DNA from: Escherichia phage vB_EcoP_DE5 | Strand: one strand, 5' to 3' | DNA length: 64,000 nt | Sequence record: MW741821.1 | Shown: positions 13,390 to 21,948 of the stretch, piece after piece | How positions within the stretch are numbered: the stretch's first letter is position 1 | Layout of the letters: the number at the start of each line of letters is the position of its first letter | Notes under the pieces: model-generated | What the model was told of the DNA's origin: nothing | The model's input: the letters and a program-made list of their open reading frames with translations, nothing else | Databases searched by the model: none | Translations under genes and position numbers: made by a program

Positions 13390-13593
13390 TTAGTAGAACG
13401 AACGAATTTCATCCCACACTTGTTCCTGTTCTTTCCTATAAAAAGAAAGTTGGGTCTTGAACATCTCCACTGATGATTCAAAGTTTTTAGATTGTGCAGC
13501 TTCAACGAAACGTTCATGTCGATTGATTTTGCACCGTAGCATTAAATACTTGGCTTCAAGTCTCCGAAGAGCCTGTCTTTTCTCAAGATTCAC
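13390..13593 (-). CDS. hypothetical protein
   Basis: 67 aa ORF. Confidence 0.4.
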   Translation of the reverse strand: MNLEKRQALRRLEAKYLMLRCKINRHERFVEAAQSKNFESSVEMFKTQLSFYRKEQEQVWDEIRSFY

Positions 13594-14002
13594 TTTTCAG
13601 ATACTCTGACCAGTCGCCAGATTCAACCAGAACATCTTGTTCTTCGTCGATATGATAAATCCAAGCGATAACAGTTTCACCTGAGTCCATCTTAACAGCA
13701 ATCTGAGTACGCTGATAGAAGCTGTCTTCAGGGCTACGTTTGTTGTAACCTTCCAGTCGGTCATATGGACCTTCCAGACCTGCTTTGTCAGTAGCAAACA
13801 CTTCTACACGAACAGGCTTATTGTTATTGCTGTGTGCGAGAGAGATGCTTGGGAAGTAGGAACCACCATAACGGAACAGATCAAAGTTGTCTTCAGTCCA
13901 ACCTTCACCAATCGACTTAGCACCAGCTCGGTCATTAACTAGATAGTTAGCTTGACCACGACGAAGAGAACCATAAGTTGCTACGTAAATTACTTCTGAC
14001 AT
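13583..14002 (-). CDS. gamma-glutamyl cyclotransferase-like (AIG2/GGCT family) protein
   Basis: 139 aa; N-terminal YVATYGSLRRG matches the YGSL motif of this fold. Confidence 0.6.
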   Translation of the reverse strand: MSEVIYVATYGSLRRGQANYLVNDRAGAKSIGEGWTEDNFDLFRYGGSYFPSISLAHSNNNKPVRVEVFATDKAGLEGPYDRLEGYNKRSPEDSFYQRTQIAVKMDSGETVIAWIYHIDEEQDVLVESGDWSEYLKSES

Positions 14003-14003
14003 T

Positions 14004-14213
14004 TTAAATACCTTTCCAGTCTTTCATGATGTTTTCAATGTAAGCACACTGCTGATCAGTGGCTCCTGTTACAAACACTTCTAACCCCAACTGCTCACAG
14101 AAGGGATTAAGAATTAGTATTCTGGTTTGTCCATATGAGTGATGCTCTCGGTAGATAACACACCCAGCATCCCATACAGAGTCAATGGCTTTACTCAATC
14201 TTTCATGTTTCAT
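14004..14213 (-). CDS. hypothetical protein
   Basis: 69 aa ORF. Confidence 0.4.
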   Translation of the reverse strand: MKHERLSKAIDSVWDAGCVIYREHHSYGQTRILILNPFCEQLGLEVFVTGATDQQCAYIENIMKDWKGI

Positions 14214-14266
14214 AAAACCTCCAGTTTATCCGAACTAGCCTCCTCTTTCGAAGAGGCTAAAGCAGA

Positions 14267-19554: not shown

Positions 19555-20168
19555 AACGAATCCACCAACGTAATATTATAATTGCTAAGGTTTTCAGAGA
19601 TGTGATGAAAATGCTCCAGAAGTCGCATCGGTTGCTGACCGTAAGAGTCACGAGGTGCTTCCAGATCTACTTGTCCTACCAGTGCACCTTTATAATGCAC
19701 CTTACCATCCGTAGGGTTGATGTAAATGTAACGAGTAACCAATCCATCAAATTCAGGATTGAACAGACTGTAAACCATTTCACCAGAGATCGAACGACCA
19801 ATCCCAGGAGCGTTTCGAATCTTGTTACCCATCAAACCCTTCGCTCTCTGACGAACAGGGTTGATGTGAGTCCAGCTTACAGTGTTACCGTTATGGAACA
19901 GATAACCAACATCAGGCGATTCAAGAATCAAGGTTGGGTCGAACACTGGAATATTCATCGTAGTGTTTCGAAGATTCCCTTGCTCATTCTTGTACCACTG
20001 CTCTACAACAAAGTACAAAGCCTGTTCTGCTTCGTGAGAGAAGTCATCGCTGCGGAAGTTACCGCTCTGCTCAACACCAATCACAAAACACGGAAGGTTG
20101 ATATTGCCTGCCCGTTTAGCAATCCATGTACCATTATAGTAATGAGAAAAATCAGCTACTAAGCTCAC
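19551..20168 (-). CDS. hypothetical protein
   Basis: 205 aa; operon with amidoligase genes. Confidence 0.5.
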   Translation of the reverse strand: MSLVADFSHYYNGTWIAKRAGNINLPCFVIGVEQSGNFRSDDFSHEAEQALYFVVEQWYKNEQGNLRNTTMNIPVFDPTLILESPDVGYLFHNGNTVSWTHINPVRQRAKGLMGNKIRNAPGIGRSISGEMVYSLFNPEFDGLVTRYIYINPTDGKVHYKGALVGQVDLEAPRDSYGQQPMRLLEHFHHISENLSNYNITLVDSL

Positions 20169-20177
20169 GATAACCTC

Positions 20178-20984
20178 TTATGCTACCTGAAGGAGTTTGA
20201 TCTGCTGGTCAGCTTCTTTAACGTTGTTCCCGTTAATGATTTCATGAAGCTTCTCAATCGGAAGGCGAGAGTGCAATGCCATCAGAGTGGACATATCACA
20301 CTGCTGAACAACCTTGTCAACCTGATCGTAAACAAACTTACGGTTTTCACGATCACTAATCCAGAAGTTAGACAGAGAGCGATATTCAATACCATAGTCT
20401 TTATAACGGATTGCAGATGCTTTACCGTAGAGTTCTTTACGGCGAGTATCTTTGTCCATAATTACTGCTGGGAGAGACAGGAAGTAGTCACACAGCACAC
20501 CAAGCATCATCTGAGTTTGCAGAGTGATATCCAAAGCACCAACTACGCCAAGATGTACGTGACCACCGGCAGTACGAAGTCCCTTATTCTGAGAAGTCGG
20601 GGATGGGTTTTTCTGACCAGTGAAGGCGTTGAAATCAGGAGTGCACCCGAAGATGAACGCTGATTCATTAAAGGTCTTCATCTCTTCTTCAGTGAATATG
20701 TGAGAGCTAACACCTGGAGCTGTTTCCATGTCTAGTTTGTTCAGGACATTGTTAGTGAGATCGATACCACGTTGCATGTTATCGTTAAACGCTTCAAAAC
20801 CGCTCTGTGGGTCGATATCAAACTCAGCCAGTACGTTGTCCTCTTGAAGACGAACATCTTTAGCCAGAGCGATCTTATCGTCCTTAGAGCAGCCTAATAA
20901 ACCGGCTACAGAGGTGATGATACCGTTGCTAGTACGAACGAACATTTCAGGGTCAGAGCCGATGAGGAATTTGCGCTTAGTCAT
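20178..20984 (-). CDS. putative second amidoligase (GCS2-like)
   Basis: 268 aa; IGSDPEMF and GGHVHLG motifs. Confidence 0.4.
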   Translation of the reverse strand: MTKRKFLIGSDPEMFVRTSNGIITSVAGLLGCSKDDKIALAKDVRLQEDNVLAEFDIDPQSGFEAFNDNMQRGIDLTNNVLNKLDMETAPGVSSHIFTEEEMKTFNESAFIFGCTPDFNAFTGQKNPSPTSQNKGLRTAGGHVHLGVVGALDITLQTQMMLGVLCDYFLSLPAVIMDKDTRRKELYGKASAIRYKDYGIEYRSLSNFWISDRENRKFVYDQVDKVVQQCDMSTLMALHSRLPIEKLHEIINGNNVKEADQQIKLLQVA

Positions 20985-21948
20985 TGTAATACTCCACTAG
21001 TTCAGAAAAGAGAGATGAGATTGTGTTACCAACTTCTTCAAGAGTAAGACCGGAATCTGCTCCAGTTCTTTGAATCAGTCGGGATGTAAAGTTTTGTACT
21101 GTAATGTTTCCCAACTTGTCGTCTATTGATTCACGTTTGTGACCATAGCAGTTGGACCAGAGTCTTAACCACTCTGACATTGTTTCATACTCGTCCGGGT
21201 CTTGATCTTTAGCACGAGCAAATCTTCGTAAGGCATCTTGGTTATGGTTACGAACATAACCATTCTCGTTGTCGCCAACACCGAAGGGGTTTTGAACCCA
21301 TACTTGCTTCGTGTATTCATCAGAGTCTACAACCAAAGGAAGGAATGCTGCTGCTGACATATTGTTGTTGATAACAATAGAGGTGCTCTCGCTACTCCCA
21401 TTGGCTCTCCCTCGTTGAGACCATCCACCGAAGAAGTCACGACCCAACCCAGCTAACATTAGAGCGATGCCGATGCGTTTACGCTTCAGCCACTCTTCCC
21501 TGTCTTCAATTCCTTCTGCTAGGAAATCCATTCCACGATATTGCCCTTCCAGAATACTACGAAAGAGCATAAGTCCTGTGAAGATCTGATCTGCTGGATG
21601 CTCACGAAGGTTGACAGCAACACTATTCGCTGAAGTGATCGTAAATACGTCACGATAGCAAGACATGGAGTTCATAATGTCTGCTGTTTCAACCAAATTC
21701 TTTTCAATATCAGATGTAACATGACCATGAAAAGAGTGAGTCCAGTAATTCAACATCTCCAGTTGCAAGTTGATATCACGGTTGAAGCGACGATAGCGCC
21801 CTTCTTCCGTGATAACTTCACCATTAATGTCATTTACACACTGGCCTTGCATGTAGTTGTGGATACCGAAGCACCCACGACCTAAGAACTTCTGTTCCCC
21901 TAAATCCTGTTGAAGATTCAGAGGTACGATCGTTGTGGAGATTGACAT
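20977..21948 (-). CDS. hypothetical protein
   Basis: 323 aa ORF. Confidence 0.5.
   Translation of the reverse strand: MSISTTIVPLNLQQDLGEQKFLGRGCFGIHNYMQGQCVNDINGEVITEEGRYRRFNRDINLQLEMLNYWTHSFHGHVTSDIEKNLVETADIMNSMSCYRDVFTITSANSVAVNLREHPADQIFTGLMLFRSILEGQYRGMDFLAEGIEDREEWLKRKRIGIALMLAGLGRDFFGGWSQRGRANGSSESTSIVINNNMSAAAFLPLVVDSDEYTKQVWVQNPFGVGDNENGYVRNHNQDALRRFARAKDQDPDEYETMSEWLRLWSNCYGHKRESIDDKLGNITVQNFTSRLIQRTGADSGLTLEEVGNTISSLFSELVEYYND

What the first reader, a model, noticed from the sequence alone, without database searches (positions are those of the whole stretch)
13583..21948. Phage-borne amidoligase cluster: cyclotransferase, ATP-grasp, class-II amidotransferase and two GCS2-like ligases
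Five co-directional enzyme genes sit together: a YGSL-motif gamma-glutamyl cyclotransferase-like protein (13583-14002), a RimK-like ATP-grasp ligase (14704-15897), an Ntn-type glutamine amidotransferase with a Cys-rich zinc-finger tail (16341-18371) and two proteins with GxExE / HxH motifs reminiscent of GCS2 carboxylate-amine ligases (18451-19554, 20178-20984), plus flanking unknowns. This is the enzyme set expected for building, amidating and removing a gamma-glutamyl-type peptide or amide linkage on a protein or small molecule. Comparative work has, as I recall, proposed peptide-tagging systems of this kind in some phages, but the substrate and role are not established. This is the best candidate in the window for an uncharacterised system.
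Basis: partly seen in the sequence, partly recalled or inferred. Interest (0 to 1): 0.85.

Follow-up and report, generated by a model that had tools for sequence, protein, structure and literature searches.

The report
Known phiEco32-type phage amidoligase gene cassette
This is a real, intact operon of three ATP-dependent amide-bond ligases, a glutamine amidotransferase and a gamma-glutamyl cyclotransferase in a phiEco32-like E. coli phage; it was described by comparative genomics in 2009, is widespread in phages, and its target has still never been tested.

Summary
The window is a Kuravirus (phiEco32/SU10-like) genome, about 97% identical to published phages. All five enzyme genes lie at the stated coordinates on the minus strand, tightly packed. 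Pfam, PHROGs and NCBIfam confirm the families, and the catalytic residues are invariant across 5-10 phage lineages.

The cluster is not new. Pfam PF14395 is named after phiEco32. Three later papers read here credit Iyer et al. 2009 with predicting that this cassette modifies the cell wall (one calls it a 'putative peptidoglycan modification module'). I found no experimental test.

What I add:
The four-enzyme core co-occurs in 30 of 30 full-flank IMG/VR loci, in a fixed order.
- A 205-aa non-enzymatic protein sits between the two ligase genes in 68 of 79 loci.
- A DUF7195 protein follows the amidotransferase in part of the lineages.
- Two upstream proteins belong with the cassette. One has a confident fold with no PDB neighbour.
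- GGCT and peptidase C26 replace each other (46 loci versus 25, both in 1). This points to an obligatory step that cleaves a gamma-glutamyl bond.

The acceptor is unresolved: a small molecule or cell-wall precursor, a protein, or DNA.

Novelty: already known. Interest is moderate, as an old open question that can now be tested in phages infecting E. coli K-12.

The parts
21959..23155 (-). 398-aa protein, first gene of the cassette ('PADR-motif' protein A). Likely an enzyme of unknown fold. Invariant residues: MFPV N-terminus, PPCYGFL, IWNSGTH, ADRCLFYLM..R, D246/C248, WRQ, GHxRD, NNSMF.
20977..21948 (-). 323-aa protein, second gene ('PADR-motif' protein B). Motifs are collinear with the 398-aa protein: CFG, W.H, PADQ..LML.R, W.Q..GY.R.H.
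   Evidence: Alignment A4. The A4 profile picks the second gene of the pair in Proteus phage 3H10_20 as its best non-self hit (E 0.01). Paralogy with the 398-aa protein is not statistically supported (hhalign probability 0.2%). An upstream 314-aa family in 26 IMG/VR loci shares the CF[AG] and PADRxxxxLxLLR motifs (hhalign E 0.0018 to the 398-aa family).
20178..20984 (-). Carboxylate-amine ligase, Pfam PF14395 (COOH-NH2_lig, phiEco32 type 2).
   Evidence: Pfam 2.3e-8, above the gathering score. PHROG 3815, 3e-118. Invariant in 10 lineages: D11, E13, E54, H142, H144, R182, E200, R202. tblastn finds 306 phage records. No relative in the PDB by sequence profile.
19551..20168 (-). 205-aa conserved non-enzymatic protein, always between the two ligase genes. 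It has two small beta-barrel halves and a highly conserved, predicted-disordered basic loop at residues 84-127 (..INPVRQRAKGLMGNKIR).
18451..19554 (-). Carboxylate-amine ligase, Pfam PF12224 (Amidoligase_2), with a C-terminal extension of about 140 aa.
   Evidence: Pfam 5.1e-8. PHROG 7469, 9e-159. Invariant E31, E33, E35, E58, H95, H97, E119, R130, E186, R188. No PDB relative by profile.
18372..18450 (-). 79-nt intergenic spacer, the only sizeable gap in the operon. It holds an 8-bp GC-rich hairpin and the Shine-Dalgarno AGGTGG that precedes the ATT start.
   Evidence: Sequence. RNA fold -22.9 kcal/mol, z -1.8, not significant.
16341..18371 (-). Class-II (N-terminal nucleophile) glutamine amidotransferase or amidohydrolase, 676 aa. 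ATT start codon with Cys as residue 2. The variable C-terminal region carries three Cys-rich clusters.
   Evidence: GATase_6 1e-14, GATase_7 and GATase_4. NCBIfam GlmS/PurF/AsnB/EgtC N-domains at 2e-11 to 3e-4. Translation and start context. Cys follows the start codon in 9 of 10 lineages. Invariant C2, R29, R86, T89, N111, G112, D129. Only residues 1 to about 230 are conserved across lineages. Detected by MS in SU10.
16105..16338 (-). 77-aa protein of Pfam DUF7195, conserved directly after the amidotransferase gene.
   Evidence: PF23825 at 4.7e-17. LUZ24 gp20 (5e-19) and Vp_R1 066 (1.5e-21) belong to the same family. Alignment: C-termini not conserved. Found in 22 of 79 IMG/VR loci.
15900..16124 (-). 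74-aa ORF overlapping its neighbour. Conserved only in close relatives.
14704..15897 (-). RimK-like ATP-grasp ligase (residues 1 to about 290), followed by an acidic linker and an 82-aa C-terminal domain.
   Evidence: Detected by MS in SU10.
14004..14697 (-). Three small ORFs (82, 61 and 69 aa) between the ATP-grasp and GGCT genes. Lineage-specific, function unknown.
   Evidence: PHROGs 8339 and 13365, unknown function. No homologues in other lineages. The 61-aa ORF has a hydrophobic C-terminus.
13583..14002 (-). Gamma-glutamyl(amine) cyclotransferase, AIG2/GGACT family.
   Evidence: Pfam PF06094 3.4e-17. PHROG 2520, 1e-44. Invariant Y10, G11, L13 and E84. Replaced by peptidase C26 in other lineages. 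Detected by MS in SU10.

Best explanation
This is the phiEco32-type amidoligase cassette. It is a co-transcribed operon expressed before the late genes and embedded in the replication module. It encodes a soluble, cytoplasmic, glutamate/glutamine-centred pathway for making amide bonds.

Shown from sequence: five enzymes with intact catalytic residues, plus conserved non-enzymatic partners.

Inferred by analogy with characterised members of the same superfamilies:
1. The two glutamine-synthetase-fold ligases (PF14395, PF12224) each activate a carboxylate as an acyl-phosphate and join it to an amine. The model reaction is activation of the gamma-carboxylate of glutamate, as in GS, GCS, PuuA and PafA.
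2. The RimK-like ATP-grasp enzyme adds an amino acid, by analogy L-glutamate, to a terminal carboxylate.
3. The N-terminal-Cys amidotransferase binds a glutamine or gamma-glutamyl moiety. It either amidates a carboxylate of the adduct or hydrolyses a gamma-glutamyl amide, as EgtC does.
4. The GGCT enzyme cleaves a gamma-glutamyl-amine bond and releases 5-oxoproline. In other phages a peptidase C26 gamma-glutamyl hydrolase takes its place.

So the pathway builds a short gamma-glutamyl-type peptide or amide on an acceptor and then removes a gamma-glutamyl group. The 205-aa protein probably acts as an adaptor or substrate-presenting subunit for the two ligases whose genes flank it.

The acceptor is not shown. 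My ranking is:
- a soluble cytoplasmic small molecule, including the published candidate of a peptidoglycan precursor peptide: about 0.45
- a protein: about 0.2
- a folate- or glutathione-like metabolite: counted within the first class
- DNA or a nucleotide: about 0.1
For: - Family assignments.
- Catalytic residues invariant across 5-10 phage lineages.
- Cys directly after the start codon whatever the codon.
- Tight co-directional packing.
- Proteins detected by mass spectrometry in SU10.
- No transmembrane or signal-like segment in any conserved protein.
- The four-enzyme core co-occurs in 30 of 30 IMG/VR loci with full flanks.
- GGCT only in 46 loci, peptidase C26 only in 25, both in 1, neither in 7. 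This is non-orthologous displacement of a gamma-glutamyl-cleaving step.
- Three later papers attribute a prediction that the phiEco32 cassette modifies the cell wall to Iyer et al. 2009; one calls it a 'peptidoglycan modification module'.
Against: - No substrate-defining domain was recognised. The amidotransferase C-terminal region, both ligases and the 398/323-aa proteins have no characterised relatives.
- That the carboxylate is a glutamate gamma-carboxylate is only an analogy.
- The ATP-grasp matches RimK-family models far below their curated cut-offs.
- The primary 2009 paper could not be read, so its argument is known only through citing papers.
- Constant linkage to primase/helicase and replication genes is not explained by a cell-wall role.
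Confidence: 0.5

Rival explanations
1. Cell-wall modification, the prediction credited to Iyer et al. 2009. The enzymes would add unusual peptide linkages to, or amidate, the peptidoglycan stem peptide at the level of cytoplasmic precursors. The result would be exclusion of superinfecting phages or preparation of the wall for lysis.
For: - This is the only published proposal, as cited.
- All cultured hosts of COOH-NH2_lig-bearing phages named in the search output are Gram-negative (15 further genera were not shown).
- All proteins are soluble, which is compatible with acting on UDP-MurNAc-peptide.
- From my own knowledge, there are precedents for ATP-grasp enzymes (Aslfm D-aspartate ligase) and class-II amidotransferases (AsnB1/LtsA) acting on peptidoglycan precursors.
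Against: - No Mur-ligase, peptidoglycan-binding, lipid-II-related or exported component in the cassette.
- In the cultured lineages examined it lies among replication genes, while the lysis genes seen in those regions lie outside it.
- A step that removes a gamma-glutamyl group is not obviously needed for a stable wall modification.
- Never tested experimentally in the literature I could search.
Confidence: 0.25
2. Covalent protein modification, resembling pupylation or polyglutamylation. A GS-fold ligase would join glutamate to a lysine of a phage or host protein. The 205-aa protein's conserved loop is one possible acceptor. The ATP-grasp enzyme would extend the chain, and GGACT or C26 would reverse the mark.
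For: - Two different GS-fold ligase genes flank a conserved non-enzymatic protein whose most conserved segment is predicted to be disordered and carries invariant basic residues.
- RimK-family enzymes are protein glutamylases.
- From my own knowledge, GGACT-family enzymes act on epsilon-(gamma-glutamyl)-lysine.
- The 205-aa protein occurs in 68 of 79 loci.
Against: - No Pup-like tag. The C-termini of the small conserved proteins are not conserved.
- No PafA/Dop family match.
- The crAss-like phi14:2 cassette has no detectable homologue of the 205-aa protein.
- The AF2 model of the 205-aa protein is only of moderate confidence.
Confidence: 0.2
3. DNA or nucleotide hypermodification. The cassette would decorate a base in phage DNA, or a nucleotide precursor, with an amino-acid-derived group. 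This would explain the unexplained resistance of Gordonclarkvirinae to restriction-modification systems.
For: - In all ten cultured lineages examined the cassette sits within a few kb of a primase or primase/helicase gene, and replication genes are frequent IMG/VR neighbours.
- Gordonclarkvirinae resist RM systems with no known modification pathway, although the window keeps 32 EcoRV, 6 EcoKI, 10 EcoRI and 102 EcoP1 sites.
- Amidoligase and amidotransferase genes co-occur with thymidine-hypermodification genes in viral metagenomes.
- Two upstream proteins of unknown fold could be the missing enzymes that act on bases.
Against: - No 5-HMUDK, aGPT-Pplase, DpdA, glycosylase-like or other DNA-directed domain was detected in any cassette protein.
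- Pseudomonas phage Rembedalsseter carries the full cassette, yet native versus amplified nanopore data showed no modification motif.
- Kuravirus genomes are routinely sequenced and assembled.
Confidence: 0.1

Closest known systems
phiEco32-type amidoligase cassette (Iyer, Abhiman, Burroughs & Aravind 2009, Mol Biosyst 5:1636; Pfam PF14395 and PF12224)
   Same: It is the same gene set in the same phage group. The window is about 97% identical to SU10 and CHD5UKE1, and the PF14395 protein is 99.6% identical to that of phiEco32.
   Different: Nothing differs in the element itself. My analysis extends the description with the 205-aa adaptor-like protein, DUF7195, the upstream PADR-motif proteins, the GGCT/C26 alternation and the ATT start codon.
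LUZ24/UFV-P2/tf (Bruynoghevirus, Vicosavirus) gp14-gp23 region
   Same: Same order: two proteins of about 300 aa, COOH-NH2_lig, a protein of about 190 aa, Amidoligase_2, GATase, DUF7195, ATP-grasp, AIG2, primase/helicase.
   Different: Identity is 30-40%. The amidotransferase and ATP-grasp proteins are shorter and lack the Kuravirus C-terminal additions. Homology of the two upstream proteins to the Kuravirus pair was not demonstrable.
Gamma-glutamyl 'handle' pathways: Puu putrescine pathway (PuuA/PuuD), ergothioneine (EgtA/EgtC), butirosin (BtrJ/BtrG), glutathione cycle (GCS, ATP-grasp GshB, GGCT). Cited from my own knowledge.
   Same: The same enzyme classes are combined: a GS/GCS-fold ligase and/or an ATP-grasp ligase to attach glutamate, then an Ntn or class-I amidohydrolase or a GGCT to remove it.
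   Different: No sequence-level orthology to any of these enzymes. Scores are far below the equivalog cut-offs. The phage set has three ligases plus unknown partners, and its substrates are unknown.
Pup ligase / deamidase system (PafA, Dop, Pup)
   Same: Two GS-fold enzymes encoded together with a small protein that has a disordered conserved segment.
   Different: No match to the PafA/Dop family. No C-terminal GGQ/GGE tag. ATP-grasp, amidotransferase and GGCT enzymes are not part of the Pup system.

Membership tests
phiEco32-type amidoligase cassette (Iyer et al. 2009) | Co-directional cluster containing PF14395 COOH-NH2_lig, PF12224 Amidoligase_2, a class-II GATase, an ATP-grasp enzyme and an AIG2/GGCT protein | tested here: met
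   Near-identity to phiEco32 and SU10.
Class-II (Ntn) glutamine amidotransferase | Cys as the first residue after the initiator Met | tested here: met
   ATT-TGT start. Conserved in 9 of 10 lineages and in 55 of 57 non-redundant IMG/VR orthologues.
Class-II (Ntn) glutamine amidotransferase | Glutamine-binding and oxyanion residues (Arg, Arg/Thr, Asn-Gly, Asp of the GlmS/PurF N-domain) | tested here: met
   Invariant R29, R86, T89, N111-G112, D129. The mapping to GlmS numbering is from my own knowledge.
Class-II (Ntn) glutamine amidotransferase | A recognisable synthase/acceptor domain that receives the ammonia | tested here: inconclusive
   Residues from about 230 to 676 have no family match and are not conserved between lineages. 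The enzyme may be a hydrolase, like EgtC.
RimK-family ATP-grasp alpha-L-glutamate ligase | Mg-ATP-binding Lys and the Asp/Glu/Asn triad | tested here: met
   K173, D229, E241, N243 invariant. Aligned to 7qys.
RimK-family ATP-grasp alpha-L-glutamate ligase | Full-length match reaching the curated family score | tested here: not met
   TIGR00768 scores 32 bits against a cut-off of 143. PRK10446 scores 25 against 331. Only residues 190-270 match.
GCS2 / YbdK carboxylate-amine ligase (PF04107) | Match to the GCS2 family model | tested here: not met
   No PF04107 hit at E <= 0.01. The proteins match PF12224 and PF14395 instead. Superfamily membership was not checked by structure.
GGCT/GGACT (PF06094) | YGxL substrate-binding motif and a catalytic Glu | tested here: met
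   Y10, G11, L13 and E84 invariant. Pfam 3.4e-17.
Pupylation-like tagging system | PafA/Dop-family ligase and a small tag with a conserved C-terminal Gln/Glu | tested here: not met
   No such Pfam hit. The C-termini of DUF7195 and the other small ORFs are not conserved.
Thymidine hypermodification pathway (5-HMUDK, aGPT-Pplase) | A 5-hmdU DNA kinase and/or an aGPT-Pplase homologue in the cluster | tested here: not met
   No Pfam match for any cassette protein, nor for any of the 31 family members scanned.
Peptidoglycan-precursor modifying system | Activity on UDP-MurNAc-peptide or lipid II | not testable with these tools
   Only indirect: soluble proteins and no peptidoglycan-related domain.

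The most novel reading that the evidence does not exclude
The cassette is a phage-encoded covalent protein-modification system. The two GS-fold ligases and the RimK-like enzyme would build a glutamate-based branch on a lysine. The 205-aa protein's conserved disordered loop would serve as acceptor or adaptor. The GGACT or C26 enzyme would erase the mark, and the novel-fold PADR-motif proteins would supply specificity. This would be a glutamylation or pupylation-like tagging pathway not yet described for bacteriophages.
Probability: 0.15. Interest if true: 0.85.

Novelty: already known. Interest (0 to 1): 0.45.

Why it matters
This is one of the most widespread multi-enzyme modules of unknown function in tailed phages. 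The PF14395 ligase alone has 306 cultured-phage records and 472 IMG/VR relatives. The module occurs in Kuravirus, LUZ24-like, Zobellviridae, Grimontviridae and crAss-like phages.

Its product has been unknown since it was predicted in 2009. Finding it would reveal either a new way in which phages remodel the host envelope, a new metabolite, a new protein mark or a new DNA modification. Kuraviruses also show unexplained resistance to restriction-modification systems.

BASEL phages Bas90 and Bas91 carry the cassette and infect E. coli K-12 with restored O-antigen, so the question is now directly testable. For this window specifically, the cluster is an ordinary member of a known, annotated gene set.

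Tried and rejected
1. Paralogy of the 398-aa and 323-aa proteins. Collinear look-alike motifs are visible, but hhalign gave probability 0.2%. Reported only as a suggestion.
2. Homology of LUZ24 gp14/gp15, K4 gp20 and similar proteins to the Kuravirus upstream pair. phmmer scores were at noise level. Only an N-terminal C-[FYW]-G motif is seen by eye.
3. PDB relatives of the 205-, 323- and 398-aa proteins and of both ligases, by sequence or profile: none found.
4. hhalign between the two ligase families: not informative with shallow alignments.
5. A small carrier or tag protein with a conserved C-terminus (LysW/Pup-like): the 77-aa protein is DUF7195 and its C-termini are variable.
6. aGPT-Pplase or other DNA-modification families in the unknown proteins: no hits.
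7. Defence-system models (PADLOC): no hits.
8. phiEco32 gp36-type promoters inside the cassette: none. The motif count in the window is not above chance.
9. The primary 2009 paper and the 2008 phiEco32 genome paper were not available. The paper cap then stopped a check of published restriction digests of Kuravirus DNA.
10. The afdb50 fold library was unavailable.

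
Full report
**Identity of the window.** Megablast of 13583-21948 finds 98 phage records, 65 of them covering at least 80% of the query. The best are Escherichia phages vB_EcoP-CHD5UKE1, KM01, Bas91 and SU10 at about 97% identity. The window is therefore a Kuravirus (phiEco32-like, Gordonclarkvirinae) genome. 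The region has no compositional anomaly (GC 0.42-0.44).

- Pfam gives GGACT/AIG2 for 13583-14002 (3.4e-17), GATase_6 for 16341-18371 (1e-14), Amidoligase_2 (PF12224) for 18451-19554 (5e-8) and COOH-NH2_lig (PF14395) for 20178-20984 (2e-8).
- The ATP-grasp gene (14704-15897) reaches only a sub-threshold Pfam hit. It is supported by NCBIfam RimK_fam and MptN (about 1e-7, far below curated cut-offs), by PHROG 2599, and by PDB RimK-family ligases aligned over the Mg-binding motif.
- The ORF listing reported the amidotransferase as 563 aa from a TTG. The frame is in fact open for 676 codons and begins ATT-TGT, with AGGTGG 8 nt upstream. Cys is therefore residue 2, as an N-terminal-nucleophile amidotransferase requires.
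- Gene spacing runs from -20 to +79 nt, and no convincing terminator lies inside the cluster.
- ATP-grasp, amidotransferase, GGCT, a 23.3-kDa protein (the mass of the 205-aa product) and a 13.9-kDa protein (matching 23167-23529) were detected by mass spectrometry in SU10 preparations.

**The enzymes look active.** I aligned orthologues from 5-10 distantly related phages. The following residues are invariant:

| Enzyme | Invariant residues |
|---|---|
| GGCT | Y10, G11, L13, E84 |
| ATP-grasp | K173, D229, E241, N243 |
| Amidotransferase | C2, R29, R86, T89, N111-G112, D129 |
| PF12224 ligase | E31, E33, E35, E58, H95, H97, E119, R130, E186, R188 |
| PF14395 ligase | D11, E13, E54, H142, H144, E200, R202 |

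The amidotransferase set corresponds, to my knowledge, to the glutamine-binding and oxyanion residues of the GlmS/PurF N-domains. None of the conserved proteins has a membrane-like segment.

**The cluster is already described.** PF14395 is called 'Phage phiEco32-like COOH.NH2 ligase-type 2'. Three later papers read here credit Iyer, Abhiman, Burroughs and Aravind (2009) with predicting that the phiEco32 amidoligase and amidotransferase modify the cell wall to prevent superinfection. One of them calls the set (GGCT, ATP-grasp, aminohydrolase, amidoligase, COOH-NH2 ligase) a 'putative peptidoglycan modification module'. I could not read the 2009 paper itself. Ten full-text searches found no experimental test of the function.

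**Extent and conservation of the cassette.** The same gene order is found in LUZ24, UFV-P2 and Rembedalsseter, and in Vibrio phage Vp_R1, Proteus phage 3H10_20 and Aeromonas phage APT65. The same genes, in partly permuted order, occur in the Zobellviridae phages K4 and CVT22, in Sinorhizobium phage phiM6, and in the crAss-like Cellulophaga phage phi14:2. In every case a primase or primase/helicase gene lies adjacent or within a few kb. A 33%-identical metagenomic relative shows the same order.

An IMG/VR scan with an alignment of the PF14395 ligase gave 472 relatives, of which 79 loci were kept. Results from those loci:

- In the 30 loci with full 10-kb flanks, the two ligases, the amidotransferase and the ATP-grasp enzyme co-occur in 30 of 30.
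- Unbiased clustering of neighbouring ORFs shows a homologue of the 205-aa protein (19551-20168) in 68 of 79 loci. In every full-flank locus that has it, it lies between the two ligase genes.
- GGCT and a peptidase C26 / class-I amidotransferase are almost mutually exclusive: 46 loci with GGCT only, 25 with C26 only, 1 with both, 7 with neither.
- Both enzymes cleave gamma-glutamyl amide bonds. This is a non-orthologous displacement. It argues that removal of a gamma-glutamyl group is an obligatory step.
- The remaining frequent neighbours are replication genes.

**The 'flanking unknowns'.**

- *The 77-aa ORF (16105-16338).* It belongs to Pfam DUF7195, as do LUZ24 gp20 and Vp_R1 066. Its C-terminus is not conserved, so it is not a Pup- or LysW-like carrier.
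- *Relatives of the 398-aa protein.* Foldseek against viral models links it to the positional counterpart in Proteus phage 3H10_20, and to two separate proteins each in Cronobacter phage GAP52 and Aeromonas phage LAh_8 (E 1.5e-6 to 3e-3).
- *The 323-aa protein (20977-21948).* It shows collinear look-alike motifs, but profile comparison does not support paralogy with the 398-aa protein. A 314-aa family upstream of the ligase in 26 IMG/VR loci shares the CF[AG] and PADRxxxxLxLLR motifs (hhalign E 0.0018). I treat a 'PADR-motif' family as suggestive, not proven.

**Mechanism.** What is shown is the set of intact enzyme families, their co-inheritance and order, and the GGCT/C26 alternation. What is inferred by analogy is the following:

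- Two acyl-phosphate-forming GS-fold ligases and a RimK-like ligase make up to three amide bonds around glutamate.
- The Ntn enzyme either amidates with glutamine-derived ammonia or hydrolyses a gamma-glutamyl amide.
- A gamma-glutamyl group is finally removed.

To my knowledge this logic recurs in the Puu, ergothioneine, butirosin and glutathione pathways. The acceptor is unknown.

**Weighing the possible acceptors.**

- *Peptidoglycan.* This reading has precedents for the enzyme classes. However, it has no domain-level support here and does not explain the replication-module context.
- *Protein.* This is suggested by the 205-aa protein, but there is no tag-like component.
- *DNA.* Kuraviruses resist RM systems with no known modification pathway. 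The window retains 32 EcoRV, 6 EcoKI and 102 EcoP1 sites. Amidoligases co-occur with thymidine-hypermodification genes elsewhere. Against this, no DNA-directed domain was found. Rembedalsseter carries the full cassette yet shows no nanopore modification signal.

**Verdict.** The element is already known as a predicted system and is routinely annotated. Its function remains open and is now experimentally tractable. Interest is moderate.

Noticed in passing
window 18369-18371 (minus strand start of 16341-18371): The amidotransferase gene starts with ATT, with Shine-Dalgarno AGGTGG 8 nt upstream. Among 57 non-redundant IMG/VR orthologues, 50 use ATG and 5 use ATT. The ATT users include two unrelated environmental phages (L034, L060), and Pseudomonas phage K4 uses ATC. 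The SU10 paper listed the protein as 63.8 kDa, which is the truncated TTG start lacking the catalytic Cys; the full protein is 76.1 kDa.
   Followed up: yes
whole window: Some sites are strongly avoided: CCWGG (6 observed, 98 expected), GATC (140 vs 296), PstI (0 vs 19), KpnI (0 vs 13) and BamHI (1 vs 12). EcoRV (32), EcoKI (6), EcoRI (10) and EcoP1 (102) sites are retained. The RM resistance reported for these phages is therefore not explained by loss of those sites.
   Followed up: partly
window 9650-11077 (-): A 475-aa nucleotidyltransferase with a weak poly(A)-polymerase / CCA-adding head domain (Pfam PolyA_pol, E 9e-4, below threshold). In Bas91 it sits next to a dCTP deaminase. The BASEL authors suspect that this gene pair is involved in a DNA modification.
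   Followed up: no
window 23711-23728 and 24396-24421 (-): Two terminator-like hairpins with T-runs on the minus strand, just upstream of the first cassette genes. They may mark the 5' boundary of the transcription unit.
   Followed up: no
window 4087-4095 (-), 46773-46781 (+), 63844-63852 (+): Exact matches to the phiEco32 gp36-sigma promoter element TAATGTATA. None lies inside the cassette. The count of matches with up to one mismatch (19) is not above chance (20.8 expected).
   Followed up: partly
window 18372-18450 (-): The only long intergenic gap in the operon holds an 8-bp GC-rich hairpin directly after the amidoligase stop codon. The fold z-score is -1.8, so it is not significant on its own.
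   Followed up: partly
L028/UFV-P2 ORF24, L006 phiM6_77, Escherichia phage YF01: HNH homing endonuclease genes are inserted inside the cassette in several relatives, at different positions: between the amidoligase and amidotransferase genes, or between the amidotransferase and COOH-NH2 ligase genes.
   Followed up: no
window 11022-11579 (-) and Bas91 36891-38735: The DNA polymerase 3'-5' exonuclease is encoded as a separate small gene next to the primase/helicase, far from the polymerase gene. The same arrangement was noted for the LUZ24 group.
   Followed up: no
L012 1-9000; L010 700-3300: More distant relatives that carry the cassette encode NAMPT plus PRPP synthetase upstream of it; the metagenomic relative (L012) also has TerC, TerD, a TerF-like vWA protein and a NUDIX protein, and APT65 (L010) has TerC. 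These are NAD-salvage and tellurite-resistance-like genes.
   Followed up: no
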